IMG/VR virus record: IMGVR_UViG_3300045988_116984
Length of the DNA: 64,000 bases
DNA from: a virus
Strand: one strand, 5' to 3'
The translations under genes were made by a program, and so were the position numbers. The notes beneath the pieces are model-generated. The model did not search any database and was not told where the DNA came from. It saw nothing but the letters and a program-made list of their open reading frames with translations. Below are positions 1,032 through 20,165 of this stretch, piece after piece (position 1 is the stretch's first letter; each line of letters opens with the position of its first letter).

Positions 1032-3806
1032 TTGTTGATAAATAGACAATTCTATATCTACAAGTTTGAGAGCAAATATCTTGAGAAGAACAAATACAAC
1101 ATAAAGTTAAGTTTCAAGCAAGCCAAAGAGAGCGACCAGATAATTGCCGTATCAGACAGCCAAATGCTTAGAAGCATAAGAGATATACAGCAGAGATACG
1201 TTGATAAATATAAGATTGAGCTTTTGTTTAAGAAACGAGATGATATTAAGAAACTACCATCGTCAAAGGTTAATTCTTCTCTGATAAGAGAGATTAATAA
1301 GCAGATAAACATGATGATGTTTGTCCCTGAATATGTTTCGGTTATTATTTCAAAGCCAGCGCATTATAAGAAGTTGTTCTATAATGGATTGTATATCAAT
1401 GGAAAGAAATATATAAGATTTTCTTGTTCGGCTTCTCAGGCTAGAGTAAATACAATTATCATGGTTCAAGAAGATATATCGGAAGAACTTTATAAAAGAT
1501 TGAACAATGGCAGACACAGCAAGAAGTTGAACCCAAGCAAATTTAATGCTTATCTAGGGCTGAGCAGTTCAGCAACAACACCTGTTAGTACACCAAGGGT
1601 TTGCGTAGTATCAGACTGTTTGATGAAGCGAAATACGCTTGTAAACTACGTTACTGAAGTATACGAACCATTGTGTGACGATATTATAGAGCGCAAGGAA
1701 GTAGAGATAGAATACAATTACTTTGATGGGATGGGATTGATTTCTCCGCAACAAAGTGAAAAGTGGGCACACGAGCTTGAACTGGATTGGATTCCGGCGG
1801 AATGGTGTATCCGAAACGCTTGGATAAAGGGAATGGTTTGTACGTTCCCTATCCAAGAGTTCTGTGAAAAGGTGAATGGTGGAAACTATATGGTCGAAAC
1901 CATTTATAAGAACGAAGATGGAACACCTAAAATGGCCGACTTGAGAAACATTGACGTAATCATCAGTGAATCTCAATTTAAGATGGCTGGATGTTATGAT
2001 AGTTATGAAGAATATGAGCGCAATTGCATAACCAATAAACTTTCGTGGGGAATATCAAAGTATTCTCCGAAACAGGATTCTAATAATCTGTACTTAAACT
2101 ATCAGTCATTACAGACGCTAAAGCTTGATGATGAAGATATTGTCGAGTTGTGTAAGCCTACTGTTGATTGGATTCGCGGCGTAACAAGAGATAATGTGAT
2201 GTATACTTCTCTTTTTCTTATGGGAAAATCGGTTGGTAAGAACGGAGTAGTAAACTTTGTAAATAGCAGTGATAACTACTGGTTAAAGTCGCTACTTGTA
2301 AACCATGACATTATCAAGGATAGATATGTTTCAGATAAGATATATGATAATATCGTAAATAAGATTAAGAGTGCTTGTATGGGTAAGCTCGTTGTTAATG
2401 GGAATTATCAATGTTTGGTATCAGACCCATATGCTATGATGGAACATATTTGCGGACTTGAACCAAATGGTTTGCTAAAGGAGAACGAGTATTATGCTAA
2501 ATACTGGAACGACAGAGGTGTATCTCTTGTTGACAGTATGCGTTCTCCTCTTACATACAGAAGCGAACATAATCTGTTAGATTTAAAAGATAATGAAGTG
2601 CTTAGTCACTGGTACAGATATTTAAACACTGGTATTGTGGTCAATGTTCATGGCGACGATGTTCTCAGATGGGCCGACTCAGATTATGACTTCGATATTC
2701 TTGCCACAACTTCAAATAAAACTATTATCAAGGGAGTATACAAAGATGAGCTTGCGGTAACATACCAAAAGAAAACTACTGATAAGATTGACTTTACACA
2801 AGAAGATTTATACAAAGCAGACCTACTTGCTTTTGGTTCCGATATTGGCGCAATTACAAATAAGAGCACGTCAATGTATGCTATGTTGCCATTATATGAA
2901 CCTGATAGCCCGCAATATAAAGAATTGGAACGTCGTCTTATAATGACACGAGTGGCACAAGGTAACAGCATCGACAAAGCAAAGGGCGTTCAAACAAAGC
3001 CTTTCCCAAAGCATTGGGGTAACTATCAAAGACAGTCAGAAGAAGATACAGATGAAGTAAAACAGAAGAAAGAGTTCTTCAATAGTATATTGGTTGAAAA
3101 GAAACCATACTTCTTTAAATATCTTTATAAGGATAGCAGAGTTGCTTATAATAAGTTTTTGCGAGAAGAAGAATCATATAGACAGATTTATGGAATTGAC
3201 CTTTCTTCTATTCAAAGCAAAGATGAAAGTGAACTTACGGAAAAAGAAAAATATTATCTTGCTTCAATGAATTATAGAAATCCTCTTATTGAGTCTGATT
3301 GTGAAATGAATCGTATTTGTAGATATCTTGAAAGTGTTGATTTTGACATTAAACATCCTAAGGTACATCACGAAGATATTTATAAGCTGTATATGTGTGA
3401 TGGAATTGAAAAGAACATAAATACATATAACTCCGTTAAACGTTCAGTAAAGAGTTTTTTCCAATCTTTAAGAGAAGATGTTTCAATGAGTGATTATTCA
3501 ACGTCTTTGAAATACGTTCCAGACGAAGAACATAAGATTATCAATAAATATGATTTATTCAAAGACACCATGACCGATTTGTGTTCTAATATAAATGAAC
3601 TTGTAAACTATTTAGTTGAAATCTTTTATGTTGATATGAAGTCATGCAATAAGGATATTTTGTGGAAAACGTTTGGAAAGACCATGTTCACGAATGTATA
3701 TAACAAATCTTCAAAGAAAGTCCTTATCCCGCAAATTGAAGATGATGGCGAATACACATATTTGTTTGATAGATACAACGTCTTGGAGGTAGACTTAGTT
3801 GGTTAA
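1032..3806 (+). CDS. YonO-like / cellular-RdRP-like single-subunit RNA polymerase (two-barrel type), putative
   Basis: 924-aa ORF. It has a metal-binding-type DxDxD motif, DYDFD (nt 2682-2696, context WADSDYDFDIL), and an upstream SMRSPLTYRSEH segment like the RxP..hpgD block of QDE-1/YonO-family enzymes. No other polymerase motifs were recognised. GGAGAG RBS upstream. Confidence 0.5.
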   Translation: MLINRQFYIYKFESKYLEKNKYNIKLSFKQAKESDQIIAVSDSQMLRSIRDIQQRYVDKYKIELLFKKRDDIKKLPSSKVNSSLIREINKQINMMMFVPEYVSVIISKPAHYKKLFYNGLYINGKKYIRFSCSASQARVNTIIMVQEDISEELYKRLNNGRHSKKLNPSKFNAYLGLSSSATTPVSTPRVCVVSDCLMKRNTLVNYVTEVYEPLCDDIIERKEVEIEYNYFDGMGLISPQQSEKWAHELELDWIPAEWCIRNAWIKGMVCTFPIQEFCEKVNGGNYMVETIYKNEDGTPKMADLRNIDVIISESQFKMAGCYDSYEEYERNCITNKLSWGISKYSPKQDSNNLYLNYQSLQTLKLDDEDIVELCKPTVDWIRGVTRDNVMYTSLFLMGKSVGKNGVVNFVNSSDNYWLKSLLVNHDIIKDRYVSDKIYDNIVNKIKSACMGKLVVNGNYQCLVSDPYAMMEHICGLEPNGLLKENEYYAKYWNDRGVSLVDSMRSPLTYRSEHNLLDLKDNEVLSHWYRYLNTGIVVNVHGDDVLRWADSDYDFDILATTSNKTIIKGVYKDELAVTYQKKTTDKIDFTQEDLYKADLLAFGSDIGAITNKSTSMYAMLPLYEPDSPQYKELERRLIMTRVAQGNSIDKAKGVQTKPFPKHWGNYQRQSEEDTDEVKQKKEFFNSILVEKKPYFFKYLYKDSRVAYNKFLREEESYRQIYGIDLSSIQSKDESELTEKEKYYLASMNYRNPLIESDCEMNRICRYLESVDFDIKHPKVHHEDIYKLYMCDGIEKNINTYNSVKRSVKSFFQSLREDVSMSDYSTSLKYVPDEEHKIINKYDLFKDTMTDLCSNINELVNYLVEIFYVDMKSCNKDILWKTFGKTMFTNVYNKSSKKVLIPQIEDDGEYTYLFDRYNVLEVDLVG

Positions 3807-4530
3807 TGAGTATAACGAAATATCCTATGCTAAGAAAATGTTAGATTCGGGCTTTCTAACAAACAAGAGAATGTACGAACTTAACATCTTAGCGAAATAT
3901 TTCTTTTATCTTGGTTATAAACCCAAAGAAGTCCAAGAGCGTGTAGTCGATTTTTGTAATAACTACTTTGATAGTTTTAGCGAAGCAAAGTATTTTGACA
4001 AGATTCAGTCTATTTTAAACAACGCTAGAAAAATGCCAATCATTGAGGTTGGCACCATTCAGATAACAGAAAAGGAAGTTGAATTTATAAACTCAATTAA
4101 AGAGCCATTCAAATTCAATGATGTTCTGTTTTGTCTGCTTGTTATAAAGAAGATTAGGGAGAAACTTGGGCAACAGCCATACCTGAACTGTAAATATACC
4201 AAATTCACCAAATCCTGTGGCCTATCCTCCCCAAAGGTTCTCTATCCCCTTCTCCGCCGCTTAGAACAACTCGGCTTTATTCGTGTTTGTCGAAACTCCA
4301 ATCTTGAAATCTTATTCAACGTAGATGCTTCCAACTCTCCAACCGTCATTGAAGTAAACGATTTTGACAACATCTATGCTTACTATCATAACTATCTTGG
4401 TAAGGGGCGATATGTAGAGTGTTCTTCATGCGGTAAAATGGTTCGTGTAAAGGGGAACAGACGTAAATACTGTAATGAATGTGCTAGAATAATTAACATA
4501 CAAAAAACGTTAGAACGTAAAAAGGTTTGA
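3799..4530 (+). CDS. winged-helix-like protein with C-terminal zinc ribbon (possible transcription/DNA-binding factor)
   Basis: TTG start with a GGAGG RBS 8 nt upstream; it overlaps the RNAP stop (TTGGTTAA). LRRLEQLGFIRV is a wHTH-like segment. The C-terminus has CSSCGK...CNEC. Confidence 0.4.
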   Translation: MVNEYNEISYAKKMLDSGFLTNKRMYELNILAKYFFYLGYKPKEVQERVVDFCNNYFDSFSEAKYFDKIQSILNNARKMPIIEVGTIQITEKEVEFINSIKEPFKFNDVLFCLLVIKKIREKLGQQPYLNCKYTKFTKSCGLSSPKVLYPLLRRLEQLGFIRVCRNSNLEILFNVDASNSPTVIEVNDFDNIYAYYHNYLGKGRYVECSSCGKMVRVKGNRRKYCNECARIINIQKTLERKKV

Positions 4531-4677
4531 AATAGAACTCAATTTTCACCCCCATTTTCAACATACTTTTCCTATGTCATTTTGGCCATCCCAAAATAAA
4601 AACTCGCTAAAAATATATAGGAAAGATAGAAGAAAAAATAAATCAGTAAAATTCTACAAGAAAGGTGTCATAAGCTT

Positions 4678-4851
4678 TTGATAAAGATAACCAAGCAAGA
4701 ATACGAGCAAGGAATTAGAGCGTCAGGGTTCAAGTGTCGTAACCCAATTTCACGTTCAGGTAAAGGGAACAAGTATTACTATATAGTAGAGACAGACTAC
4801 GAGAACTATTTGAGATTCATCAAAAATAAAAATAGATTGGGAGCAAAATAA
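4678..4851 (+). CDS. small hypothetical protein (57 aa, TTG start)
   Basis: Below the ORF-track cutoff. Hand translation gives (M)IKITKQEYEQGIRASGFKCRNPISRSGKGNKYYYIVETDYENYLRFIKNKNRLGAK. Its stop abuts the ATG of the next gene. The AAAGGTG RBS is rather far upstream. Confidence 0.3.
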   Translation: MIKITKQEYEQGIRASGFKCRNPISRSGKGNKYYYIVETDYENYLRFIKNKNRLGAK

Positions 4852-6042
4852 ATGTCCTACATCTTTGATACTAACATGTTCATGGAAGATTTTGACGTGA
4901 ACAAGTACAAAGGCGAGAAGATATATATACCGATTGTTGTACTTGAGGAACTCGACAAACACAGTCATAGTTCAGACAAGTTAAGGGCCTGTAAGGCGAG
5001 AAACGGGCTAAAGGCAATTGAAAAGCTCGGACAAGTCACTTATGGATTTAACGACATAGAGGAGAATAGAGTTTCTTCTTTCTTGGATATGAACGTTAAG
5101 GACAACTTGATTATCGAAGCGGCTCATCTTATTTGCAAGAAAGACCCAGACGCCACCCTATTAACACACGATTTGAACATGTATCAAAAGTGTGTAGCTT
5201 TGGGAGTCAAGTGTAAACACATTGATTATTCAAAGACTCCAATTTACAAAGGATATATCGAGGTTGTCGGTACTACCGAGACAATCAACAGATTCTTTGA
5301 TGAAATAAACACAGACAATCTTTACCCAAACGAATACATTCTTATCAAAGACATCTCTACTGATGAAGAAACAGAAATGCGTTGGACAGGCGAAAAATTC
5401 GTAGCATTAAACCTACCTGACTCAAAAGTTGTTAAGGCTAAGAACGCATTACAGCGTTGCGCGTTGGACTTGATGATGAATAGAGACATAACTGCTGTTG
5501 CTATTCTCGGCGGATATGGTAGTGGCAAAACATATTTGTGTATGCAAATGGCGCACTATTTTGTGTTCGATAGAAAAGAACATAATAAGATTCTTGGAAT
5601 TAGAGAGCCTAACGGTGAGGGAAAAGATATTGGTTATCTTAAAGGAACGTTTGAGGATAAAACGGCCAGATTCTTTAGGCCAATTGAGCAACAACTCAAA
5701 GGGCCGGGAGAATATGACTACTTAATCCAGTCAGGCGTAATTGAAACAGAAATTCCTTTCTACATGAAAGGTACAACCTATGATAAAACTATCTTCGTGG
5801 TTGACGAAGCAGAGGACTTGTCAGAAGCACAAATCAGACTTGTCGGAACTCGTGTCGGAGAGAATAGTAGAATTTTCTTTTCGGGGGACTTTGCACAATC
5901 AGTGAAAGATAAAACAGTTTCTAACCCACTTGTCAAGATGTGTGAACAGCTTAAGGGCAACAAGAAATTTGGTTGCGTATATTTAGACGAAGATGTTAGA
6001 AGCGAAACCAGCAAAATGTTTGCTGACTTATTCAATAATTAA
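4852..6042 (+). CDS. PIN-domain + PhoH-like ATPase (YlaK-type)
   Basis: N-terminal PIN signature (YIFDTNMF, VVLEELD, THD). Walker A GGYGSGKTY and Walker B VVDEAEDL match the PhoH family. Confidence 0.8.
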   Translation: MSYIFDTNMFMEDFDVNKYKGEKIYIPIVVLEELDKHSHSSDKLRACKARNGLKAIEKLGQVTYGFNDIEENRVSSFLDMNVKDNLIIEAAHLICKKDPDATLLTHDLNMYQKCVALGVKCKHIDYSKTPIYKGYIEVVGTTETINRFFDEINTDNLYPNEYILIKDISTDEETEMRWTGEKFVALNLPDSKVVKAKNALQRCALDLMMNRDITAVAILGGYGSGKTYLCMQMAHYFVFDRKEHNKILGIREPNGEGKDIGYLKGTFEDKTARFFRPIEQQLKGPGEYDYLIQSGVIETEIPFYMKGTTYDKTIFVVDEAEDLSEAQIRLVGTRVGENSRIFFSGDFAQSVKDKTVSNPLVKMCEQLKGNKKFGCVYLDEDVRSETSKMFADLFNN

Positions 6043-6056
6043 CGAGGTATATAAAT

Positions 6057-6683
6057 ATGGATTTTGAATTATCCCCTATCTTTATTCCAGAGGATTTGTC
6101 CAATTTGAAGCTTCCAACACCAGAACTTGTTACATTCTATCAAAGCCTTGATAACAGGGTTTTGTGGTTGGATGATGAAATTGGTGACCAGCTACTTGAA
6201 TTTTCTAAATATATCATTAGATGGAATATGGAAGATGATAGAGCGGAGATTCCTATCGAAAACCGAAAGCCAATTAAGATTTTGATTTTCAGTCCCGGCG
6301 GAAGCTTATATGCCTGTAATCACTTTGTAGATATTATTGAAATGTCGAGGACTCCTGTATGGGGCATCAACGTTGGAATGGCAATGAGCGCTGCGTTTTT
6401 CATTCAGTTGTCTTGTCATAAGAGGATGTGTACGAAGAACTCTGTGGCGTTGATACATCAAGGGAGCACAGGAATTAGTGGAAATGCTGCTGATGTTATT
6501 AGTTCAGCAAAGAGCTATGAGCAGCAGTTGAACAGACTGAAAGACAGGGTTTTGGAGAAAACAAATATCACAAATCGTCTTTACAATCAGAAATTGAAAG
6601 AAGATTGGTATTTGGATTCTTCTGAGCAATTGAAATATGGTATCGTTGAAGCGATTGTAGAAGATATTTCTGAATTGTTTTAA
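6057..6683 (+). CDS. clpP: ClpP-family serine protease
   Basis: FSPGGS, GMAMSAAFF (catalytic Ser context) and LIHQGS (His), with a C-terminal ...YGIVEAIV like the ClpP ..yGlvD.I block. Confidence 0.75.
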   Translation: MDFELSPIFIPEDLSNLKLPTPELVTFYQSLDNRVLWLDDEIGDQLLEFSKYIIRWNMEDDRAEIPIENRKPIKILIFSPGGSLYACNHFVDIIEMSRTPVWGINVGMAMSAAFFIQLSCHKRMCTKNSVALIHQGSTGISGNAADVISSAKSYEQQLNRLKDRVLEKTNITNRLYNQKLKEDWYLDSSEQLKYGIVEAIVEDISELF

Positions 6684-6707
6684 CACATAATAGGAGAAAA
6701 CGGAAAA

Positions 6708-7016
6708 ATGGAAAAGACAATACCAAAGAGCGAGCTTATCAAAGAAGTCGCTCGAAGAACAAAATATCTTAAAACGCCAGTTGGCGAGATTATAAACACT
6801 CTTGAAGAAGTTATGAACGAGACGATAATCAATAATGACGGAACGATTCGATTTAGTTGTTTTGAAATTGGCAACAAGATGATTCCGGCTATGAAAGGCA
6901 TTAACCCAAAGAGCGGCGAGCCTTACGACACAAAGGAACATCTTGTTCCATATGCTAAGATTAGACTTACATTTAAAAGACTTCATAGGGAGCTAACATA
7001 CGACAATGAAAAGTAA
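6708..7016 (+). CDS. HU/IHF-family DNA-binding protein
   Basis: KSELIKEVA..., GINPKSGEPYDTKEHLVPYAKIR matches the HU arm (G.NP.tGe.i.i....vp.fk). About 100 aa. Confidence 0.75.
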   Translation: MEKTIPKSELIKEVARRTKYLKTPVGEIINTLEEVMNETIINNDGTIRFSCFEIGNKMIPAMKGINPKSGEPYDTKEHLVPYAKIRLTFKRLHRELTYDNEK

Positions 7017-7197
7017 ACAAGGTATTTTTGATACAACAAGCCGAAAGATTGTAGGAGTTTTGAATCTTGACGATGGCGACGTTGTTGTGGAAGTAAATGG
7101 AACATCAGTAACTTTGGATGAAGTATTACAAGATTATAATGGTTGTAATATCACTATCACAGTAGGTGATAATTCTTCCGGGCTTACGCAGGAATAA
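7006..7197 (+). CDS. hypothetical protein
   Basis: 63-aa ORF that fills the gap and overlaps the HU stop. No recognisable motif. Confidence 0.35.
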   Translation: MKSKQGIFDTTSRKIVGVLNLDDGDVVVEVNGTSVTLDEVLQDYNGCNITITVGDNSSGLTQE

Positions 7198-7209
7198 AGG
7201 AGAACTGTT

Positions 7210-8508
7210 ATGAACGAGATTAAAGTCCGTGTAGTACAGCTCTGTATTGACAAAAAGCGCAGAAACGAAAGGGCCTTTTATGGCTCTGTTGCCGACACGA
7301 TTCGAGAAGAGTTTGGTGTGGACTTGCCAATAGAGCGAATTAGAAGTATTTCTAGGCAATATAGACGCGAGAATCATATGGATGATAACTTCTATCCTAT
7401 TGATGCTACTGAAGCGTCTAAACCAGTAACGGTTTCATTACAGGCTGATGGTTCAACGGTTAGTGAAAAATCTTTTTCGGTTGCGCATAATACAGAACTG
7501 ACGCCAGAACTTCTCCTAGAGAAGCATGGATTCGACAAAAACACATTTGAGCTTGTATCCGCTAAGAATAGTAGATGGAATGTACAGCAAAAAGGCTCTG
7601 GCCTTATGGATATGTATAGCTCAAAGATTACTGTTCGCCCGGCAAAGGAATTTGTTTGGAGTCAGTCGAATATTGATAGAGCTTTCAAAAATATCAAAAT
7701 TCAAGCTTCTCCGTCTAGAAAGAAAAAGGCTTCGGTACATAATGGAAGATGCCTTGTAGTCCCAATTAGTGATTTACACCTTGGACTTCTTTCGGAGAAG
7801 AAAGTTTCTGGAAACGACTATAATCTTGAAATGGCAGAGGCATTATATTACTATGCGATAGATGATGTAATGTCAGAAGTCGGTGATACAGAGTTTGAGA
7901 AAGTTATGTTCATTATAGGCAATGACTTTATCAATGCTGATAATATCAATAATACAACTACAAAAGGAACGCCACAAGATTGTTCCAACCAGTGGCATAC
8001 GATTATTGATAAGGCGATTGAACTTTGTATCAATGGTATCAACAAACTTGCCACAATAGCTCCTGTTGATGTTGTATATGCAGTAAGCAATCACGATTAT
8101 CATAGCATGTATGGTATTATGAATGTTCTTAAAGCGTATTACAGAAATGATGAGCGAATCAATATATATGGCGACCCGGCTGAAAGAAAATACTTTAAGT
8201 TCGGAAGTGTAATCATGGGTGTTTCGCATGATTTGAAGCCAGATAAGGCTTTGGAGATTATGTCGGTTGAAGCACATGATATGTGGAGTTCTTGCAAATC
8301 AATGATTTGGTTTTTGGGACATCTACATACACAGATGGCTTATAGTAAAAAGGGTTATGTTGAAGTTCTCCGCCTCCCGACAATTAGCGGGTGGTCACGT
8401 TGGTCTAACCAGCAGGGATATGTACAAACGGAGCGCAAGAATCAAGCGTTTATTATAGATGCCGATACTGGTATTAAGACGACAATTAATACAGTTATTA
8501 AATTATAA
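7210..8508 (+). CDS. calcineurin-like metallophosphoesterase with N-terminal extension
   Basis: The ordered motifs ISDLHLG, GNDFINAD, SNHDYH and GHLHT match the D-x-H / GD / GNH(D/E) / GH-x-H phosphoesterase pattern. Confidence 0.6.
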   Translation: MNEIKVRVVQLCIDKKRRNERAFYGSVADTIREEFGVDLPIERIRSISRQYRRENHMDDNFYPIDATEASKPVTVSLQADGSTVSEKSFSVAHNTELTPELLLEKHGFDKNTFELVSAKNSRWNVQQKGSGLMDMYSSKITVRPAKEFVWSQSNIDRAFKNIKIQASPSRKKKASVHNGRCLVVPISDLHLGLLSEKKVSGNDYNLEMAEALYYYAIDDVMSEVGDTEFEKVMFIIGNDFINADNINNTTTKGTPQDCSNQWHTIIDKAIELCINGINKLATIAPVDVVYAVSNHDYHSMYGIMNVLKAYYRNDERINIYGDPAERKYFKFGSVIMGVSHDLKPDKALEIMSVEAHDMWSSCKSMIWFLGHLHTQMAYSKKGYVEVLRLPTISGWSRWSNQQGYVQTERKNQAFIIDADTGIKTTINTVIKL

Positions 8509-8514
8509 AGAAAA

Positions 8515-8550
8515 CCCTCGTATCTTTTTATGGATACGGGGGATTTTGTT
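8515..8550 (+). terminator. rho-independent terminator
   Basis: CCCTCGTATC / GATACGGGGG stem (10 bp, one G-U) with an 8-nt loop, followed by ATTTTGTT. Confidence 0.7.
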
Positions 8551-8551
8551 T

Positions 8552-8627
8552 GCTGGTGTAACTCAATTGGTAGAGTAGCTCATTTGTAATGAGCAGGTTT
8601 GGAGTTCGAGTCTCCACATCAGCTCCA
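8552..8627 (+). tRNA. tRNA-Thr (anticodon UGU), CCA encoded
   Basis: Hand-folded cloverleaf. Acceptor GCTGGTG/CATCAGC, D stem ACTC/GAGT, anticodon stem GCTCA/TGAGC with loop TTTGTAA, T stem TGGAG/CTCCA with loop TTCGAGT, and a 5-nt variable loop. Confidence 0.85.
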
Positions 8628-8660
8628 ATAGAAAAAACGGAAAAAGCGGAGGGTATGTAA

Positions 8661-10034
8661 ATGCCTAAAGAAGTAGGAAAAAGGAACATGGGCAGAGCCA
8701 TGACTGGTGGTGCTGATGGTGTTAGACGTGCCAATCGCGGAGCGCCAAGCAAGGCTCAAATTGCTCTATTGAAACAATATAAGGTTGACCATAACAAAGC
8801 AGGAGTCATAGATAATACCATTGATGGTGTTGTATCTGATTGTATTCTTGATATTAAAGAAGCAATTGACAATATGATTCAATATGGCGACCCAAGCATA
8901 TATAGAGTTCTTCCAAAAGAACTTGATGAAAAGATGCGTGCGTATGGAATGTACGCTCAAGAGTATTTCGGAGAAAGGCTAACAAGTATAAAAGGCCAGC
9001 CAGTCTACATAGTGCCAGTTACATTTAAACAGTGTAGTAAGTGTGGCAAGTTCAAAGACAGAGAGACGGAGTTTTACACAACATATTCAGATGTGTCTGA
9101 CGGAACGTCTCCAATTTGCAAAGATTGTTTGAATGAACTGTTTAAAAGATATATTAAAGAGTATGGTGTAAAAGAGTCTTTGGTGGTTGTTTGTCAAAAG
9201 ATTGATATGCCAGTTATATCAGAGTTTATAAATAAGTATATTGACTATTATAATACACCAGACGGTAAAAGAGACGTCCTTAAAGGAAGTTTCATTGGGA
9301 ACTTTCTGTCCGATGTGTCATTATGGCTTTATACAGGCGAAATCCCTGATTCAGATAAGGAGTTCTGCAAAAGCAATTTACATGGAGAACCATTTAGAGA
9401 TATTGTAGCGAAATCCACATTTGCACAAATCTATGACGATGTTTATTCACAGCCGGACGACGAAGAAGATATAACTTCTCGTAAATATGCCTCTATTTCT
9501 AATCTTAGACAAAAATGGGGGAATTTTGAAGATAAAGACTTGTACTGGCTTGAAGATAAATATGACGAGTGGTATGATAAGTGTGAAATTGATGGATTAT
9601 CAAGAGAAAAACTTGTCATGCAGCTTTGTTATGAGGAGCTTTCAATTGTAAGAACCCGTGAAAAGGGTGGAAATGCAAAAGACAAGGTTAAAAGCTTTCA
9701 GGCCTTGATGAAAGACGCTGAACTTACTCCTAAGAAACAAGCGGCTACTGCTACTGGTGAATCACAATTCACATCTCTTGGTGAGTTTATTAAAGCTGCC
9801 GAAGCAAAGGGGCCAATTATAACAAAGAACAAAGCGTTCAAAGACGTTGATAGCTTTGAAAAGTTTTGGCGCTCTATTGCTGGGGCTATCTCTAAGACGC
9901 TTTGTAGAGATAGTGAGTATGTAAAAGACTTTGAAGAAAACTACAAAGATTATACGGTTGATTTCGTAGGGCCATCGAATACCGAAGAACAGTCTCCGCC
10001 AGTAGAGGTTGGTGAGGCAAATGAAAAAGACTAA
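8661..10034 (+). CDS. putative small terminase / packaging accessory protein with internal zinc ribbon
   Basis: It lies immediately upstream of, and overlaps, the large terminase gene. GGAGGG RBS. It contains CSKCGK...CKDC. The assignment is positional only, and the size (457 aa) is unusually large for a TerS. Confidence 0.35.
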   Translation: MPKEVGKRNMGRAMTGGADGVRRANRGAPSKAQIALLKQYKVDHNKAGVIDNTIDGVVSDCILDIKEAIDNMIQYGDPSIYRVLPKELDEKMRAYGMYAQEYFGERLTSIKGQPVYIVPVTFKQCSKCGKFKDRETEFYTTYSDVSDGTSPICKDCLNELFKRYIKEYGVKESLVVVCQKIDMPVISEFINKYIDYYNTPDGKRDVLKGSFIGNFLSDVSLWLYTGEIPDSDKEFCKSNLHGEPFRDIVAKSTFAQIYDDVYSQPDDEEDITSRKYASISNLRQKWGNFEDKDLYWLEDKYDEWYDKCEIDGLSREKLVMQLCYEELSIVRTREKGGNAKDKVKSFQALMKDAELTPKKQAATATGESQFTSLGEFIKAAEAKGPIITKNKAFKDVDSFEKFWRSIAGAISKTLCRDSEYVKDFEENYKDYTVDFVGPSNTEEQSPPVEVGEANEKD

Positions 10035-11871
10035 ATCCTCACAATTTTGGGGAAACTTTAACGAGTGGATAGATTATTGGAGACTTAACATTCATAGATT
10101 CGTTTTGGAGTATATGGGTGTTAATGTTAAGCTTTTCCAGCAAATACTCCTTTACTTAATGGATTCCCCAAGCTGTAAAAAGGATAATTCTTTTATATTC
10201 TTTGCTTCTCGTGGACTTGGTAAGTCGTTCTTAACAATGGTTTACTGTATAGCAAAGTGTATATTATATCCCGGTATTACAATTAAAGTAGCATCTTCAA
10301 CCATGCATCAGGCAGTTCTGTTCACAGAAAAAGCATATGAGATAAAAAGCGGCAGGCCAAACGTAGAAAGAGAAATAGAGCATATCTCTATTGGCAAAGA
10401 CTCCGCTGAAATAACATTCCTTAACGGCTCTACAATTGAAGCTGTTGTATGTTCGGACAACGCTCGTGGCGCTCGTGCTAATATTCTTATATTGGACGAA
10501 AGCCGCCTTATGAGTAAAATTACAATTCAAAAAGTTCTTATTCCTTTCTTGACAAAATCCAATCGTGACCAGCCATGGGCTATGGATACTCGATTTTCGA
10601 AGTATATGGAAGAAAGAGAACACAACTCTACAATCTATCTTACTTCTATCGGGTATAAAGACGAATGGAGCTATCAAGACTTTAAATATTATTGTGAGTG
10701 TATAGCAGAGGGCGATACGTCAAAGTGTGCTATATCGTTGCCGTATCAATTCGCAATTGAAGCTGGTATAATTAGAAAGTCATATATTGAAAATCAGTTC
10801 CATGATAGGAACGCTGATATTAGTGGGCTTAGAATGGAGTTCGAGGTTATTCCGCATGGTGAATCTGAAAGCGCTATGTTTACTTTTGATGAAGTGAACA
10901 GCGTTAGACAGCTTAGGGTTCCATTGTTACCTCCAACTGATGATGAATATATAGAATGCAAAGGTATTCTGAGGGCATTACCATACTATCAGAAGAAAGA
11001 ACCAAGAGAAATTCGTGTTATAAGCATGGATATCGCTGTTGGCGCTGGTAGAAAGAACGACTTGACAGTTATCACGGTGTTCAGGTGTATTGAAAATATA
11101 GAATACTATGATAAGGAACTAGCCTATATTGAGGTAATGGGTGGCGTAAACCTAGACCAACAGGTTATAAGGCTAAAACAGCTATTTTATGACCTAGAGT
11201 GTGACTATGCTGTGGTTGACGCTGGTGGCGCTATTGGTATTGAAACAATAAATGCTTGTGGTAATATCACAAAAGACATGGTGCGCAATCGAAGATACCC
11301 CGGTTGGAAAACTATGAACAAGGTTGATAAATACGATATGCGTATTTCAGACCCAAACGCAGAACCTGTGTTGTTTCCAATACAGATTTCTGGTGCGGGC
11401 GCATCGGCTATGCAGTATAACATGCTTGTTATAGCGCAACTTGAGTTCCAAAGAAAACGAATCTCTTTGCTTGTTGAAGAAGATACAGCCGTTCAGGAGC
11501 TTAATAAGCGATATAAATATATAACAATGAAAACGAGTAATGACAACTTAATGAGAGATAGGGCAAACAACATGTTTGGTCCGTTTGCCAACACAACACA
11601 ATTGGTTGATGAAGCAATTAAAACTCAAATTGTTAAGTTGCCTAGTGGAAGATGGGTATACGACGAAAAGAATGGGCGTAAGGACAGAATAATCAGTATG
11701 ATTTATGGACTATATTTCATAAATCAACTCGAAGAAGATTTAATTGCTATTAACAAGAGTGTTAATATAAGCGACTATGTTTCTTCAAAGAATTACTCAA
11801 GAAAAAATGGTGTAAACAATCCTTTCGCGTCGAATATTAGAAAATTAGCTGGATTTGGAATGAGAAGATGA
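10021..11871 (+). CDS. terL: terminase large subunit
   Basis: Walker A-like SRGLGKSF, Walker B ILILDESR, and nuclease-domain acidic blocks (ISMDIAVG, AVVDAGGAIG). The ATG at 10021 is preferred over the track start at 10009. Confidence 0.8.
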   Translation: MKKTKSSQFWGNFNEWIDYWRLNIHRFVLEYMGVNVKLFQQILLYLMDSPSCKKDNSFIFFASRGLGKSFLTMVYCIAKCILYPGITIKVASSTMHQAVLFTEKAYEIKSGRPNVEREIEHISIGKDSAEITFLNGSTIEAVVCSDNARGARANILILDESRLMSKITIQKVLIPFLTKSNRDQPWAMDTRFSKYMEEREHNSTIYLTSIGYKDEWSYQDFKYYCECIAEGDTSKCAISLPYQFAIEAGIIRKSYIENQFHDRNADISGLRMEFEVIPHGESESAMFTFDEVNSVRQLRVPLLPPTDDEYIECKGILRALPYYQKKEPREIRVISMDIAVGAGRKNDLTVITVFRCIENIEYYDKELAYIEVMGGVNLDQQVIRLKQLFYDLECDYAVVDAGGAIGIETINACGNITKDMVRNRRYPGWKTMNKVDKYDMRISDPNAEPVLFPIQISGAGASAMQYNMLVIAQLEFQRKRISLLVEEDTAVQELNKRYKYITMKTSNDNLMRDRANNMFGPFANTTQLVDEAIKTQIVKLPSGRWVYDEKNGRKDRIISMIYGLYFINQLEEDLIAINKSVNISDYVSSKNYSRKNGVNNPFASNIRKLAGFGMRR

Positions 11872-12323
11872 TTTATAAAATATCTTTCAAAGACGACAAT
11901 CGACCAGAGTATCGTGTACTAATGGACACTATGGCTAGAGTCGGTGATTATTGTTATAGCGCAAAAGACTTTTTCTTAGACACGGACAAGACATTTGAAG
12001 AAATGCGCGCCTTGTTTAATGACGGACTTATTGAAGAAATAGGCCCGTCTTATAATTTGTCAACGTGTTCTGAACTCGTTAGAAATTGGTGTAACGAAAA
12101 GTTCGCTATGAAAGCATTAAGAGAGTTCGAGCAAAGCGACGAAGGACAAAGCAGAATGAGAGAAATTCTGGCATATTTAGATGCCATAGAAGAAAAGAGA
12201 AGAAAGGAGGGGGTTAAGGTAAATGGCAAGACAGGTTCAAAGAGAAACACAAAGCACAAAGCCGACAAGCAGCCAGAAACAAAACAATGCGTCGAGCCAG
12301 CCAGTAAGCGTTCAACAAGTTGA
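11868..12323 (+). CDS. hypothetical protein
   Basis: ATGA overlap with the terL stop. The basic C-terminal tail overlaps the next ORF by about 100 nt. Confidence 0.4.
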   Translation: MIYKISFKDDNRPEYRVLMDTMARVGDYCYSAKDFFLDTDKTFEEMRALFNDGLIEEIGPSYNLSTCSELVRNWCNEKFAMKALREFEQSDEGQSRMREILAYLDAIEEKRRKEGVKVNGKTGSKRNTKHKADKQPETKQCVEPASKRSTS

Positions 12324-14091: not shown

Positions 14092-14269
14092 TAAGAAAAA
14101 CTGTCAGCATGTTGATTCAAACGGACATTCCACCATAATTTTTTCACATAAGAAATGGACTGGTGTATATCCGCCAAAAGTCAAAGGAATTTGTAAAATC
14201 TGTAAAGAACAAATTGAAATGACAGAGAGTGAATATAAAGAATTTATAAAAGAGGGTGAGTTATCTTGA
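14084..14269 (+). CDS. small Cys-containing hypothetical protein
   Basis: 61 aa. Contains a CQH... and CKICK pattern. Overlaps its neighbours by a few nt. Confidence 0.35.
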   Translation: MSNKKNCQHVDSNGHSTIIFSHKKWTGVYPPKVKGICKICKEQIEMTESEYKEFIKEGELS

Positions 14270-14781
14270 AACTGATTTCTGACAGAATGGAATCAGCGCT
14301 CACTGGGTTATACGGATTGTGCTTTACTGGAAATAGTATTTGTGACAACTTGGTAACACAACTTGGAGTAAAGTTTGTAATGCCAAGAACATCGGATATT
14401 ATTCATTATGAGATGGCGCATGAATTTCCGCTTCTTGGTGATGATATTGCTGAATATGCTGCTGCTCGTAATTCATATTTGCATAGACCAGCTGTTGCAG
14501 CTCATATGGAAGAATATGAAAACTTGACATCTATGTTTGCATCATTGCTTGATTTTATGATTGCCTTTGAAAAAGAAGTCGGAAAAGTCATTGATTTGGC
14601 AATTGCTGAGGATGACAAACAAACATTAAAACATCTCGATAAGTTTATTAGAAAGCTTGTTCCATTTACAGAAATGGCGCTTGGTTTTGTTGATTATGTT
14701 GAGATGAATGGTGATACACCTACTCAGTGGATGCAGATGGATTCTAATATCAATAAGTTTTTTGGTATTAAAAAGAAATGA
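14266..14781 (+). CDS. hypothetical head-module protein
   Basis: 171-aa ORF that is tightly packed with its neighbours. Helical-looking. No confident family call. Confidence 0.4.
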   Translation: MKLISDRMESALTGLYGLCFTGNSICDNLVTQLGVKFVMPRTSDIIHYEMAHEFPLLGDDIAEYAAARNSYLHRPAVAAHMEEYENLTSMFASLLDFMIAFEKEVGKVIDLAIAEDDKQTLKHLDKFIRKLVPFTEMALGFVDYVEMNGDTPTQWMQMDSNINKFFGIKKK

Positions 14782-14809
14782 TTTGTATACATAGAGGGGT
14801 GGTGATTGG

Positions 14810-16597: not shown

Positions 16598-16612
16598 GGA
16601 GGAAAACTAATT

Positions 16613-17224
16613 ATGGCTAATAAACACTTTTTTCAGCCTGTGAGAATGGAGTCTCAGTACGTTGACACAAAACTTCAGACTGTTATGTTCCAGGCCGATT
16701 CGGCTAATGCCGCTTGCTATGATGGCGAGCTTGCTGTTCTGGGTGATTTTGTTCAGGACCCCGTATATTTGAGCGCTTTTACCGCTGCTGGCGCTGCGGC
16801 TTCCGCTCCCGTTGATTTCAATACTCGCGCTGCTACTGTTCCTGCCGCTGCTACTGCTGTTGGCGTTGGTGTTATTGACCTCCCGACCGTTCCTATGGCT
16901 ACTGGTGCTGGCGTGGCATATCGCATGGGCTACAAGACGATTGGCCTGACCGCCGAAGCTGGTGTGCCTGTGCGTTTCCGTAAGCTTGTTGTGGACGACA
17001 CGTTTGCCACTGGTGAGGAAAACTGCACAGCCGCTCTGACTGTTGGGCAGTATGCCGTTCTTGCTACTGGCGGTGACGCTGGTAAGTGGGCACCCGCTGC
17101 TGATGCCGCTGCTACTGGTTGCTATGCTAAGGTTATTAGCAAGTATATCGTGTCTCAGGGCGTTGATGGTAAGGTAACAGATGATGGCGTACAGGCTTAT
17201 ATGCTTTGCGTCATGGCTAACTAA
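16613..17224 (+). CDS. Ala-rich head protein (decoration-like by position)
   Basis: It sits directly upstream of the capsid gene, as lambda D does relative to E. AGGAGG RBS. GCT-rich codon usage is shared with the capsid gene. Confidence 0.3.
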   Translation: MANKHFFQPVRMESQYVDTKLQTVMFQADSANAACYDGELAVLGDFVQDPVYLSAFTAAGAAASAPVDFNTRAATVPAAATAVGVGVIDLPTVPMATGAGVAYRMGYKTIGLTAEAGVPVRFRKLVVDDTFATGEENCTAALTVGQYAVLATGGDAGKWAPAADAAATGCYAKVISKYIVSQGVDGKVTDDGVQAYMLCVMAN

Positions 17225-17255
17225 TTAAAGGAAAGGAAAGAGAGGTAATAGAATT

Positions 17256-18431: not shown

Positions 18432-18446
18432 TTGAGTAATATAATA

Positions 18447-18468: not shown

Positions 18469-18509
18469 ATATATTAAATGAGAAAAAGGAATAAAAGGAG
18501 AACAACATT

Positions 18510-19178: not shown

Positions 19179-19190
19179 GGGGGAAAGTTT

Positions 19191-20161: not shown

Positions 20162-20165
20162 TAAT

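What the first reader, a model, noticed from the sequence alone, without database searches (positions are those of the whole stretch)
1032..4530. YonO-type single-subunit RNA polymerase candidate with a coupled wHTH/zinc-ribbon partner
Seen:
- The 924-aa ORF has no recognisable DNA-polymerase, T7-RNAP or primase motifs.
- It carries WADSDYDFD (DxDxD) about 30 residues after SMRSPLTYRSEH. This is the arrangement I associate with the catalytic double-psi beta-barrel of eukaryotic-type RdRPs (QDE-1) and their bacteriophage relative YonO of SPbeta.
- Its stop overlaps the start of a 243-aa protein with a winged-helix-like segment and a C-terminal CxxC...CxxC ribbon.
- Consensus sigma-A promoters are visible only in the early region (54.9-55.9 kb and 59.04 kb). 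None are seen in front of the late genes.

Inference: late transcription may depend on this enzyme, and the coupled protein may act as a specificity or DNA-binding factor.
Basis: partly seen in the sequence, partly recalled or inferred. Interest (0 to 1): 0.65.

Follow-up and report, generated by a model that had tools for sequence, protein, structure and literature searches.

The report
Two-part YonO-type phage RNA polymerase
This phage encodes a relative of YonO, the unusual single-chain RNA polymerase that phage SPbeta uses for its late genes, plus a tightly coupled small partner protein whose zinc-binding tail is fused onto YonO itself and which is a good candidate for YonO's unidentified start-site factor.

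Summary
ORF 1032-3806 (probable start 1035) encodes a two-barrel RNA polymerase of the YonO/cellular-RdRP family.
- Pfam RdRP scores above its curated cut-off.
- BLASTP to SPbeta YonO gives E=1e-33.
- DYDFD aligns with YonO's experimentally essential DNDGD triad.
- The three Asp are invariant in 41 homologues.
- The AlphaFold model matches only RDR2/QDE-1 structures (E down to 2.6e-17).
- Gene order matches SPbeta's (HU, YonK, YonJ, YonG, terminase, portal).

The overlapping 243-aa gene belongs to a large unannotated family. It follows the polymerase gene in 77 of 79 loci chosen by polymerase alone. Its zinc ribbon and basic tail are homologous to the C-terminal ~40 residues of YonO (hhalign 94.6%). 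Phages with a fused ribbon lack the partner. I therefore read the pair as a two-subunit version of YonO. The partner's proposed role as an initiation or DNA-binding subunit is inferred, not shown.

- A perfect sigma-A site also lies inside the late block (33750-33778).
- The catalytic motif lacks the usual Gly (DxD[F/Y/M/L]D throughout this clade).

A candidate late promoter element sits at 4611-4626, but it is supported only by subclade conservation.

Overall this is a known kind of enzyme in a new split architecture.

The parts
1032..3806 (+). Gene for the catalytic subunit, a YonO-family two-barrel RNA polymerase. It is 924 aa from TTG 1032 and more probably 923 aa from TTG 1035.
   Evidence: ORF. 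RBS GGAGAG at 1023-1028. Pfam RdRP E=9.8e-12. PHROG 8308 E=1.9e-154. BLASTP to YonO E=1e-33. AlphaFold model pLDDT 87.6, with Foldseek hits to RDR2/QDE-1 at E=2.6e-17 to 1.6e-11.
1722..1838 (+). First (beta-like) barrel signature FDGMGLIS...IRNAWIKGMV, containing D232, G233, R261, K266 and G267.
   Evidence: Translation. These residues are invariant in alignment A1. They align with YonO TDGCGMM...VRLPWVKGLL and with RDR2 SDGIGKIS...IRYGGYKGVI.
2535..2570 (+). SMRSPLTYRSEH, carrying the R-x-P motif (R504, P506) of the second (beta-prime-like) barrel.
   Evidence: Translation. R504 and P506 are invariant in A1. The motif aligns with YonO LRSPHLFREH.
2676..2696 (+). DSDYDFD, containing the metal-binding Asp triad D551/D553/D555. 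Phe occupies the position where almost all two-barrel polymerases have Gly.
   Evidence: Translation. The triad aligns with YonO DNDGD, the triad Forrest et al. mutated to Asn with loss of activity (PMC5467207). The three Asp are invariant in A1. The fourth position was M, Y, F or L, never G, in the 98 homologues read by pattern.
3785..3789 (+). Ribosome-binding site (GGAGG) of the partner gene, lying inside the 3' end of the polymerase gene.
   Evidence: Sequence. It sits 9 nt upstream of TTG 3799. The two genes overlap by 8 nt.
3799..4530 (+). Partner gene, 243 aa. It has an N-terminal helical domain (residues 7-91) that is weakly PriX-like, a winged-helix-like unit (about 104-171), a C4 zinc ribbon (205-230) and a basic C-terminal helix.
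   Evidence: ORF. AlphaFold model pLDDT 90.7. The family has 1501 clusters. It lies directly downstream of the polymerase gene in 77 of 79 loci. PDB profile hits to PriX at E=0.004. Winged-helix structural neighbours, all at E>=0.14.
4411..4530 (+). Zinc ribbon plus basic tail (YVECSSCGKMVRVKGNRRKYCNECARIINIQKTLERKKV). It is homologous to the C-terminal ~40 residues of YonO.
   Evidence: Translation. hhalign of the partner profile against the YonO C-terminus gives probability 94.6%, E=6.8e-8 (90.6% with the smaller profile). The same module is fused to the polymerases of phages Perkons and D-1873.
4531..4677 (+). Intergenic region after the partner gene. It marks the start of the co-directional late block and is the candidate location of the late promoter.
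   Evidence: It is one of only a few gaps over 100 nt in the + strand block 15-49325. Relatives have a gap at the same place, often with a hairpin or terminator.
4611..4626 (+). AAATATATAGGAAAGA, a conserved element (core TATATAGGA at 4614-4622) and a candidate initiation site. It has no -35 hexamer at sigma-A spacing.
   Evidence: It occurs once in the window. It is conserved at the same place in L006, L007, L008 and L009-L017, always 40-56 nt before the next gene. A PWM trained on distant clades does not score it above background.
4678..49325 (+). Late block presumed to depend on this polymerase. It runs PhoH/PIN, ClpP-like, HU, YonK-like, YonJ-like exonuclease, tRNA-Thr, YonG-like, large terminase, portal, head, tape measure, tail and endolysin. 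It ends at a bidirectional terminator at 49332-49359.
   Evidence: PHROG and Pfam hits. Pfam YonK/YonJ/YonG/YonD labels in the syntenic locus L008. Terminator. The gene order matches SPbeta yonN-yonK-yonJ....

Best explanation
The two genes encode a two-subunit version of the YonO-type phage RNA polymerase.

Catalytic subunit (ORF 1035-3806). It is a single-chain two-barrel polymerase. One barrel supplies D232, R261 and K266. The other supplies R504-x-P506 and the metal-binding triad D551/D553/D555. [quoted passage not shown] It would be made from the early/middle operon by host sigma-A polymerase. It would then transcribe the co-directional late block (about 4.6-49.3 kb), largely as one long unit.

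Partner (243 aa). It is translated from an RBS inside the polymerase gene, with an 8-nt stop/start overlap, so the two are likely made together. Its C-terminal zinc ribbon and basic helix are the same module that YonO carries fused to its own C-terminus. I infer that this module is part of the polymerase assembly and anchors the partner to the catalytic subunit.

The extra ~200 residues (a helical, weakly PriX-like domain and a winged-helix-like domain) are proposed to bind promoter DNA and assist de novo initiation. This would be a minimal initiation factor, working at or near the conserved element at 4611-4626.

Shown here: family membership, conservation of the catalytic residues, gene coupling, and the ribbon homology.

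Inferred: DNA dependence, the late-gene role, physical association, the initiation role, and the promoter location.
For: Polymerase:
- Pfam RdRP scores 44.8 bits against a cut-off of 23.8.
- tblastn hits include SPbeta-group records annotated 'yonO: DNA-directed RNA polymerase'.
- BLASTP to YonO gives E=1e-33, with SDYDFD aligned to FDNDGD and MRSPL to LRSPH.
- YonO's triad is essential, and YonO is required for 37 late genes of SPbeta (PMC5467207).
- D551, D553, D555, R504, P506, D232, R261 and K266 are invariant in 41 homologues of 43-85% identity.
- The model has pLDDT 87.6. The 21 significant PDB matches are all RDR2 or QDE-1.
- Synteny with SPbeta and BUCT082.

Partner:
- Homologues lie immediately downstream in BUCT082 (E=6e-34), c-st, MT835481, PMBT24 and CB473P1 (E about 1e-28).
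- 77 of 79 loci picked by polymerase alone carry it, with most starts within -20 to +14 nt of the polymerase stop.
- Ribbon homology to the YonO C-terminus: probability 94.6%.
- Complementary distribution: YonO, Perkons and D-1873 have the ribbon fused and no partner ORF nearby. The window, BUCT082, c-st and the Enterocloster phages have a partner and no fused ribbon.
- Winged-helix neighbours. PriX is the top PDB profile hit (E=0.004), and the Pfam PriX family matches 5 of 52 family members.

Late block:
- About 45 kb runs on one strand from the gap after the partner gene to the endolysin and a terminator.
- No sigma-A site of 11/12 or better occurs in 1-20000.
Against: - Physical association of the two proteins is inferred from gene coupling and the fusion in other phages.
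- The catalytic motif lacks the otherwise near-universal Gly (DYDFD), so its activity has to be assumed.
- Purified YonO elongates without any factor (PMC5467207), and nothing is known about what its ribbon does.
- TR-TP1 has a partner-like protein without a ribbon, next to a polymerase without one. The ribbon therefore cannot be the only link between the two proteins.
- PriX's nucleotide-binding residues D70/R72/R74 are not conserved across the partner family.
- A perfect sigma-A promoter lies inside the late block at 33750-33778, so part of late expression could be host-driven.
- The promoter candidate is unique to the subclade. It fails a cross-clade PWM test, scoring -7.4 bits.
Confidence: 0.6

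Rival explanations
1. The polymerase is YonO-like, but the 243-aa protein is an independent DNA-binding regulator. It could be a late-gene activator, a repressor or a nucleoid-type protein. On this view it merely shares an operon with the polymerase and does not bind it.
For: Its winged-helix-like fold, zinc ribbon and basic tail are generic DNA-binding features. An HU gene is also conserved nearby. TR-TP1 keeps the N-terminal part without the ribbon.
Against: The ribbon and tail are physically fused to the polymerase in three other phages. The distribution of fused ribbons and partners is complementary. In 77 of 79 loci the partner gene follows the polymerase gene, and it overlaps or abuts it in most.
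Confidence: 0.2
2. Late genes are transcribed mainly by host RNA polymerase from sigma-A-type promoters within the block. The phage enzyme would serve only a subset of genes or another purpose.
For: There is a perfect TTGACA-17-TATAAT site at 33750-33778 (+) ahead of the tail genes. Strong intrinsic terminators at 24170-24197 and 25749-25775 suggest several transcription units.
Against: No sigma-A site of 11/12 or better lies in 1-20000, ahead of the packaging and head genes. In SPbeta the homologous block is silent without YonO (PMC5467207). The polymerase gene is conserved at the head of this block in all relatives examined.
Confidence: 0.1
3. The pair acts in DNA replication, as a primer-making RNA polymerase with a PriX-like or Rep-like helper, rather than in gene expression.
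For: PriX, a primase initiation subunit, is the top PDB profile hit for the partner's N-terminal domain (E=0.004; PMC5700102). Weak structural and Pfam neighbours include plasmid replication initiators (4pta; Rep3_N).
Against: The phage has its own primase-helicase at 59089-61062. The gene pair sits at the head of the structural block, not in the replication module. The SPbeta phenotype of yonO deletion is loss of late transcripts. PriX's nucleotide-binding residues are not conserved in the partner family.
Confidence: 0.05
4. The enzyme is an RNA-dependent RNA polymerase, as GenBank labels its relatives. It might, for example, amplify or copy RNA.
For: The Pfam family name and the annotations of PMBT24, TR-TP1 and Perkons say so. 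The closest solved folds are RNA-dependent enzymes.
Against: The only characterised phage member, YonO, is DNA-dependent (PMC5467207). The labels are transferred from the Pfam family name, not from experiments.
Confidence: 0.05

Closest known systems
YonO of Bacillus phage SPbeta (Forrest et al. 2017, PMC5467207)
   Same: Both have the same fold family, and the catalytic Asp triad, the R-x-P motif and the first-barrel motifs align. Both genes sit upstream of the HU-YonK-YonJ-terminase late cluster. Both carry the same zinc-ribbon and basic-tail module.
   Different: Identity is only 26% over the core. The window protein has DYDFD where YonO has DNDGD. It ends in an extra beta-hairpin domain and lacks the ribbon. 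The ribbon sits instead on a separate 243-aa protein with about 200 additional residues that YonO lacks. The window has no 1.7-kb non-coding gap before the yonK-like gene.
Bacillus phage BUCT082 proteins UAW07825/UAW07826 and the Clostridium phage c-st genes CST179/178/177
   Same: These are true orthologues of the pair (46% and 31% identity for BUCT082, about 30% and 25% for c-st), with the same overlapping gene arrangement.
   Different: All are annotated as hypothetical. The c-st annotation notes CST177 as 'YonO-homolog (C-ter only)' without interpretation. The c-st polymerase gene is interrupted at the catalytic motif.
Eukaryotic cellular RNA-dependent RNA polymerases QDE-1 and RDR2 (PDB 2j7n, 7w82, 7rqs)
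   Same: They are the best structural matches over about 900 aligned columns (E down to 2.6e-17, TM 0.4-0.5). They share the two-barrel active site and the Pfam family.
   Different: Sequence identity is 11-14%. Those enzymes copy RNA in gene silencing and have DxDGD. They have no comparable partner.
Other phage two-barrel polymerases (crAss-like phi14:2 gp66, jumbo-phage multisubunit RNAPs)
   Same: They belong to the same superfamily and play the same kind of role, phage-encoded transcription.
   Different: The structural match is only marginal (phi14:2 E=0.05, cr111 E=0.025), so they form separate branches.
Archaeal primase subunit PriX (PDB 4wyh, 5of3)
   Same: It is the top PDB profile hit for partner residues 7-91 (E=0.004-0.0065). 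In the window protein K23-R24 fall at the start of helix 2, where PriX has its 72-RKR-74 nucleotide-binding motif.
   Different: The hit is borderline. PriX D70/R72/R74 are not conserved across the partner family. PriX works with a primase of unrelated fold.
Initiation factors that combine a winged helix and a zinc ribbon (archaeal TFE/TFIIE-alpha; TFB/TFIIB has a ribbon plus DNA-binding domains). This comparison comes from general knowledge and was not tested here.
   Same: They follow the same architectural logic: a small factor with a DNA-binding helical domain and a zinc ribbon that docks on a two-barrel polymerase.
   Different: No sequence or structural match was detected. The resemblance is an analogy only.

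Membership tests
Two-barrel RNA polymerase superfamily, YonO/cellular-RdRP branch (Pfam PF05183) | Score above the curated Pfam gathering threshold. | tested here: met
   44.8 bits against a cut-off of 23.8, E=9.8e-12, residues 111-564.
Two-barrel RNA polymerase superfamily, YonO/cellular-RdRP branch (Pfam PF05183) | Three metal-binding aspartates in a DxDxD loop of the beta-prime-like barrel. | tested here: met
   D551/D553/D555 align with YonO DNDGD. They are invariant in 41 homologues. The motif was recovered by a regular-expression pattern in 98 of the 120 listed homologues. The rest are truncated or split genes, or escaped the anchored pattern while still showing a DxDxD motif.
Two-barrel RNA polymerase superfamily, YonO/cellular-RdRP branch (Pfam PF05183) | Gly at the fourth position of the loop (DxDGD, as in NADFDGD, QDE-1 DYDGD and YonO DNDGD). 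| tested here: not met
   The window has Phe. This position was M, Y, F or L, never G, in the 98 clade members read by pattern. YonO, Perkons, D-1873, PMBT24 and TR-TP1 keep Gly.
Two-barrel RNA polymerase superfamily, YonO/cellular-RdRP branch (Pfam PF05183) | Invariant Arg and Pro (R-x-P) upstream of the triad. These are the Rpb1 R446/P448 equivalents listed in PMC2919709. | tested here: met
   R504 and P506 in MRSPL are invariant and align with YonO LRSP.
Two-barrel RNA polymerase superfamily, YonO/cellular-RdRP branch (Pfam PF05183) | A first barrel supplying an Asp and two basic residues. | tested here: inconclusive
   D232, R261 and K266 are invariant and align with YonO and RDR2 motifs. 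K317 is also invariant. Which residues correspond to Rpb2 K979 and K987 could not be fixed without model coordinates.
Two-barrel RNA polymerase superfamily, YonO/cellular-RdRP branch (Pfam PF05183) | Overall fold. | tested here: met
   The model has pLDDT 87.6 and pTM 0.83. The top 21 PDB matches are all RDR2 or QDE-1 at probability 1.00.
YonO-type phage transcriptase (function) | DNA-templated, processive RNA synthesis. | not testable with these tools
   Known only for YonO itself (PMC5467207).
YonO-type phage transcriptase (function) | Required for late-gene transcripts, with the gene at the head of the late cluster. | tested here: inconclusive
   The position and synteny are met. Dependence of late transcripts on the enzyme cannot be tested. 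A sigma-A site lies inside the block.
YonO sensu stricto (SPbeta clade architecture) | A C-terminal zinc ribbon and basic tail on the polymerase chain. | tested here: not met
   The polymerase has no CxxC...CxxC. The module is on the next protein instead.
Zinc ribbon (partner C-terminus) | Two CxxC knuckles with conserved spacing. | tested here: met
   C208, C211, C225 and C228 are invariant in 52 diverse members. Several Pfam zinc-ribbon families match weakly.
Winged helix-turn-helix (partner middle domain) | Three helices plus a beta-hairpin wing, matching known wHTH structures. | tested here: inconclusive
   The secondary structure fits. The Foldseek neighbours are FNR/CRP, LexA, MarR, DtxR and Rep wHTH domains, but all at E>=0.14. 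PadR and HTH_36 match weakly in a few members.
PriX / primase helper helical domain (partner N-terminus) | Sequence-profile match to PriX. | tested here: inconclusive
   E=0.0042 (19.7 bits) with the 52-sequence profile, against 0.23 with the 14-sequence profile. Pfam PriX matches 5 of 52 members, best E=7e-4.
PriX / primase helper helical domain (partner N-terminus) | The nucleotide-binding residues D70, R72 and R74 at the start of helix 2. | tested here: not met
   The window has T21-N22-K23-R24-M25 at the aligned positions. Across the family these columns are variable.

The most novel reading that the evidence does not exclude
The 243-aa protein is the missing initiation factor of YonO-type polymerases. 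It would dock through the zinc ribbon that YonO carries in cis. It would recognise a short promoter through its winged helix. It would use a primase-type (PriX-like) helical domain to hold the initiating nucleotide. That would make it a minimal functional counterpart of sigma or TFB, built from a primase initiation module and attached to the simplest known two-barrel RNA polymerase.
Probability: 0.25. Interest if true: 0.8.

Novelty: new variant of a known kind. Interest (0 to 1): 0.55.

Why it matters
YonO is the smallest known relative of cellular RNA polymerases. It is used as a model for what an ancestral single-chain transcriptase could do.

The paper that characterised it left open which promoter it uses and whether it needs a factor (PMC5467207). 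No paper in the searched library describes either since then.

This window, with its many relatives, shows that a large branch of the family always comes with a dedicated partner. It also shows that YonO's own C-terminus is a remnant, or a fused piece, of that partner. That gives a concrete protein and a concrete 147-nt DNA region to test for promoter-specific initiation.

The clade also replaces the near-universal Gly of the DxDGD catalytic loop with a bulky hydrophobic residue. This is a natural experiment on the active-site geometry of two-barrel polymerases.

Practically, hundreds of database entries labelled 'RNA-dependent RNA polymerase' or 'hypothetical protein' could be re-annotated as a two-subunit phage transcriptase.

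Tried and rejected
- Megablast of the region against 50,697 phage records found nothing. Only protein-level relatives exist.
- phmmer of the polymerase against PDB sequences gave only noise. Even the 41-sequence profile reaches RDR2 only at E=0.04. Fold comparison was needed.
- Foldseek of the partner against PDB gave no significant whole-protein match. The winged-helix call therefore stays tentative.
- Exact mapping of the SPbeta YonO start site (genome position 2225998) onto the SPBc2 record failed, because I lacked the coordinate offset. Primer positions only bracket it to L001 8931-9123.
- I tested whether the element at 4614-4622 is a sigma-A promoter. There is no TTGACA-like hexamer at 16-18 nt and no TG extension, and the scan does not list it. 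Rejected.
- I tested whether it is an RBS or the start of a small ORF. No conserved start codon follows it in relatives. Rejected.
- I tested whether the family-wide motif found by expectation-maximisation in relatives (TTTTnTTAnnTWATGR, log-likelihood 130 against at most 54 in shuffles) marks the same site in the window. A PWM trained on distant clades scores the window's gap negatively, and its top hits elsewhere in the window are at chance level. The link rests only on intermediate forms in L008 and L040.
- The resemblance of TATAGGA/ATAAGGGAGACA to the T7 promoter initiation region is treated as coincidence, because the enzymes are unrelated.

Full report
**1. What is there**

The window carries a 924-aa ORF at 1032-3806 and a 243-aa ORF at 3799-4530, both on the + strand. 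The two overlap by 8 nt (TTGGTTAA). A GGAGG ribosome-binding site for the second gene lies inside the end of the first, 9 nt before TTG 3799.

The first gene more probably starts at TTG 1035. That codon is 6 nt after GGAGAG, and the closest homologues are 923 aa.

SMRSPLTYRSEH is at nt 2535-2570, and WADSDYDFD follows 33 residues later at nt 2670-2696. The partner ends in CSSCGK...KYCNEC followed by a basic tail.

**2. The large protein is a YonO-family two-barrel RNA polymerase**

- Sequence family. Pfam gives a single significant family, RdRP PF05183 (44.8 bits, cut-off 23.8, E=9.8e-12). It finds no DNA-polymerase, T7-type or primase domain. PHROGs places the protein in an unannotated family (phrog_8308, E=1.9e-154).
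- Phage relatives. There is no nucleotide-level relative among 50,697 phage records. tblastn finds 39 records:
  - Bacillus phage BUCT082 (46% identity, full length).
  - Clostridium phage c-st and the Enterocloster phages (about 30%).
  - The SPbeta group (26% over residues 119-616, E about 1e-28), several annotated 'yonO: DNA-directed RNA polymerase'.
- Direct comparison with YonO. BLASTP gives E=1e-33. It aligns SDYDFD with FDNDGD, MRSPLTYRSEH with LRSPHLFREH, and FDGMGLIS...IRNAWIKGMV with TDGCGMM...VRLPWVKGLL.
- Experimental anchor. Forrest et al. changed exactly that YonO triad to Asn and lost all activity. They showed YonO to be a processive DNA-dependent polymerase. They also found that 37 late genes stay silent without it (PMC5467207).
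- Conservation. In 41 homologues of 43-85% identity, D551, D553, D555, R504, P506, D232, R261, K266 and K317 are invariant. These cover the aspartate triad and the Arg/Pro pair among the eight residues that Ruprich-Robert and Thuriaux list as shared by all two-barrel polymerases (PMC2919709).
- Fold. An AlphaFold model built on that alignment is confident (pLDDT 87.6, pTM 0.83). Its only significant matches among solved structures are plant RDR2 and fungal QDE-1. There are 21 such hits, with E from 2.6e-17 to 1.6e-11 and about 900 aligned columns. Weak bacterial beta-prime hits follow. Among predicted viral structures the best matches are phage 'RNA-dependent RNA polymerases'. crAss-like polymerases match only marginally.

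**3. One real difference in the active site**

YonO, Perkons, D-1873, PMBT24 and TR-TP1 have DxDGD, as do QDE-1 and cellular polymerases. The window has DYDFD.

Among the 120 listed homologues of 44% identity or more, the loop could be read by pattern in 98. In those it reads D-[FWY]-D-[MYFL]-D, never Gly. The triad itself is kept, so I still file the protein in the family. The 'DxDGD' feature is not met, and its consequence is unknown.

**4. Genomic setting**

The neighbours run, in order:
- guanylate kinase;
- polymerase and partner;
- a 147-nt gap and a 57-aa ORF;
- PhoH/PIN, a ClpP-like protease and HU;
- a 63-aa ORF and a YonJ-like exonuclease;
- tRNA-Thr;
- a YonG-like gene, large terminase and portal;
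- head genes, tape measure, tail genes and endolysin.

All lie on one strand up to a bidirectional terminator at 49332-49359.

SPbeta has yonO, yonN (HU), yonK and yonJ in the same order, and so does BUCT082. In a relative with 56% identity the downstream genes carry Pfam YonK, YonJ, YonG and YonD labels.

The region at 49.4-64 kb holds nucleotide-metabolism and replication genes: NrdD/NrdG, dUTPase and a primase-helicase. This is an SPbeta-like phage, with the polymerase at the junction between the early/middle genes and the late block.

**5. The partner**

The 243-aa protein has no Pfam family above threshold, only weak zinc-ribbon hits. It nevertheless belongs to a large family. A profile search of 1.84 billion representatives finds 1501 clusters at E<=1e-3, nearly all 230-300 aa and full length. 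The four Cys are the only fully invariant columns in 52 diverse members.

*Coupling.*
- Homologues sit immediately after the polymerase gene in BUCT082 (31% identity, E=6e-34), c-st and MT835481, PMBT24 and CB473P1 (E about 1e-28 with the family HMM), and L006-L008.
- As an unbiased test, I fetched 79 viral loci using the polymerase alone (38-98% identity) and scanned them with a partner HMM. 77 have a partner-family ORF downstream.
- In most of the 77 its start lies within -20 to +14 nt of the polymerase stop. In four (L092, L094, L102, L105) the match is weaker and begins 274-739 nt downstream.
- The two loci without a partner are a contig that ends at the polymerase gene and one split gene.

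*Fusion.*
- The YonO C-terminus ([36 protein letters not shown]) matches the partner's ribbon and tail. BLASTP gives E=1e-3. hhalign gives probability 90.6% with 14 sequences and 94.6%, E=6.8e-8, with 52.
- The polymerases of Perkons and D-1873 carry the same module at their C-termini. The D-1873 tail AKEINIKKTIENRKK is close to the window's ARIINIQKTLERKKV.
- Phages with a fused ribbon have no partner ORF in the fetched flanks. Phages with a partner have no ribbon on the polymerase.
- The c-st annotators had already labelled CST177 'YonO-homolog (C-ter only)'. No paper in the searched library describes this relationship.
- One exception is TR-TP1. The gene after its polymerase matches partner positions 9-167 (probability 88.8%) but has no ribbon, and neither does the polymerase.

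*Domains.*
- The AlphaFold model (pLDDT 90.7) shows a four-helix N-terminal domain (7-78), a small beta-alpha element, a helix-helix-helix-hairpin unit (about 104-171), the ribbon (205-230) and a basic helix.
- Foldseek gives no significant match (best E=0.14). The weak list is dominated by winged-helix DNA-binding domains: FNR/CRP, LexA, MarR-type, DtxR and a plasmid Rep.
- The 52-sequence profile puts the archaeal primase subunit PriX at the top of the PDB search (E=0.0042-0.0065, partner 7-91 against PriX 31-113). With the narrower profile the E-value was 0.23. The Pfam PriX family matches 5 of 52 members.
- PriX supplies the initiating-nucleotide site of the Sulfolobus primase through D70 and 72-RKR-74 at the start of its second helix (PMC5700102).
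- In the window protein K23-R24 fall at the aligned positions, at the start of helix 2. Across the family these columns vary.
- The PriX likeness is therefore a lead about fold and role. It is not a demonstrated nucleotide site.

**6. Promoters and the late transcription unit**

Sigma-A sites.
- No site of 11/12 or better lies in 1-20000.
- The late block does contain a perfect site at 33750-33778 (+), inside the dit gene and ahead of the minor tail gene. It also contains an antisense perfect site at 38116-38088.
- By my own estimate, such perfect sites are expected about 0.01-0.03 times per 20 kb. They are unlikely to be accidental.
- The statement that none precede late genes is therefore wrong. 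Some host-driven expression inside the block is possible.

The gap after the partner gene.
- In SPbeta, YonO starts one long late transcript downstream of yonN. The promoter and any factor are unknown.
- In the window, 4531-4677 is one of the few gaps in the block.
- It holds TATATAGGA (4614-4622), which occurs once in the window.
- The element is conserved at the same place, 40-56 nt before the next gene, in relatives down to 56% polymerase identity.
- It has no -35 partner and is followed by no conserved start codon.

Wider relatives.
- Expectation-maximisation on 56 non-redundant post-partner regions finds TTTTnTTAnnTWATGR (log-likelihood 130 against 48-54 in shuffles).
- This motif is often preceded by a conserved hairpin, AACCCTTG-N7-9-AAGGGTT.
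- L008 (TTTTTATATATAGGA) and L040 (TTTTTATATAATGGA) look like intermediates.
- A PWM trained on the distant clades scores the window's gap negatively. Its best hits elsewhere in the window are at chance level.

SPbeta.
- The published primers bracket the YonO start site to L001 8931-9123.
- That interval holds CATTTATGAGG at 9035-9045, and a second exact copy lies at 8878-8888.
- I could not map the exact start.

I therefore give the element at 4611-4626 as a candidate only.

**7. How it most likely works**

1. Host sigma-A polymerase transcribes the early/middle genes, including the polymerase-partner pair (inferred from the promoter positions).
2. The partner is translated in step with the polymerase through the overlapping stop/start and the internal RBS. 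The arrangement is shown; the coupling itself is inferred.
3. The ribbon-tail module, which is covalently part of YonO in other phages, associates with the catalytic subunit (inferred from the fusion and from the complementary distribution).
4. The additional helical and winged-helix domains contribute DNA recognition and help with de novo initiation at the start of the late block (inferred).
5. The enzyme then transcribes about 45 kb on one strand (by analogy with SPbeta).

My confidence is about 0.9 that this is a YonO-family polymerase. It is about 0.65 that the partner is a subunit of it, and about 0.4 that the partner's job is initiation or promoter recognition.

**8. Verdict**

The enzyme is a new member of a known and experimentally characterised kind. 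Several relatives are already labelled as RdRP or YonO in GenBank.

What is new, as far as the searched literature shows:
- the split architecture with an obligate partner;
- the homology of that partner's ribbon to YonO's own C-terminus;
- the non-Gly catalytic loop of this clade;
- a concrete candidate region for the promoter.

Noticed in passing
L030 7645-8511; also L035-L039, L004 (c-st) 5666-6033, and L005 (CB473P1) 2030-3184: In many close relatives the polymerase gene is interrupted. In L030 and c-st the break falls exactly at the DxDxD codons: in L030, exon 1 ends '...VLRWAD' and exon 2 resumes 'DIVATTSN'. The L030 insert is about 870 nt. It carries an HNH_3 endonuclease ORF and sub-threshold group I intron matches (29.9 bits against a cut-off of 50). 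This explains the 548-aa 'truncated' homologues. The CB473P1 interruption lies further downstream, because its first piece still contains DFDGD. The window's copy is uninterrupted.
   Followed up: partly
window 56812-57166 (+), between ORFs 56467-56835 and 57270-57797: A group I intron above the Rfam threshold (59.5 bits) splits a recombinase-like gene. Both flanking ORFs hit consecutive parts of phrog_1366.
   Followed up: partly
window 50137-54035 (-): An anaerobic ribonucleotide reductase module. The NrdD-like ORF 51926-53356 matches only the first half of its profile. An HNH endonuclease ORF (51082-51612) lies just downstream of it, and an NrdG-like ORF lies at 50137-50673. This suggests another endonuclease-associated split gene.
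   Followed up: no
window 8552-8627 (+): A tRNA-Thr (anticodon TGT) sits in the gap between the YonJ-like exonuclease and the YonG-like gene. A hairpin at 8515-8542 precedes it. SPbeta has an unannotated non-coding RNA at the head of its YonO transcript.
   Followed up: no
window 33750-33778 (+) and 38116-38088 (-): Two perfect TTGACA-17-TATAAT sites lie inside the late structural block. One is inside the dit gene, 164 nt before the minor tail gene. The other is antisense within ORF 37788-38261.
   Followed up: partly
window 25812-26858 (+), with terminators at 24170-24197 and 25749-25775: A tyrosine-integrase-like gene (phrog_1, E=4.6e-28) lies in the middle of the late block, between the head and tail genes. 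Two strong intrinsic-terminator hairpins with near-identical stems (TAAGGGAC...GTCCCTTA) lie upstream of it.
   Followed up: no
window 55362-55401: An 18-bp-arm AT-rich inverted repeat (GTATATTACTAGCTTGTA...) lies in the 838-nt gap between the divergent perfect early promoters. It could be an operator or an origin.
   Followed up: no
L044-L098, post-partner regions (for example L002 6862-6925): Relatives share a sequence-conserved hairpin, AACCCTTG-N7-9-AAGGGTT, just after the partner gene. About 20 nt further on comes a T-rich tract and then TWATGR. The same hairpin half-sites occur after yonO in SPbeta (L001 about 8197-8222) and after the polymerase gene in D-1873.
   Followed up: partly
L001 8245-8258; L029 about 5850; L028 about 4810; L003 about 7318: SPbeta, D-1873, Perkons and the Enterocloster phages share ATAAGGGAG(A/T)(A/C)A downstream of the polymerase or partner gene. 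In SPbeta it lies between yonO and yonN. In the Enterocloster phages it follows the partner gene. Its meaning is unknown.
   Followed up: no
L001 8878-8888 and 9035-9045: SPbeta carries two exact copies of CATTTATGARG, 157 nt apart, downstream of yonN. The second lies inside the interval bracketed by the published YonO primer-extension primers.
   Followed up: partly
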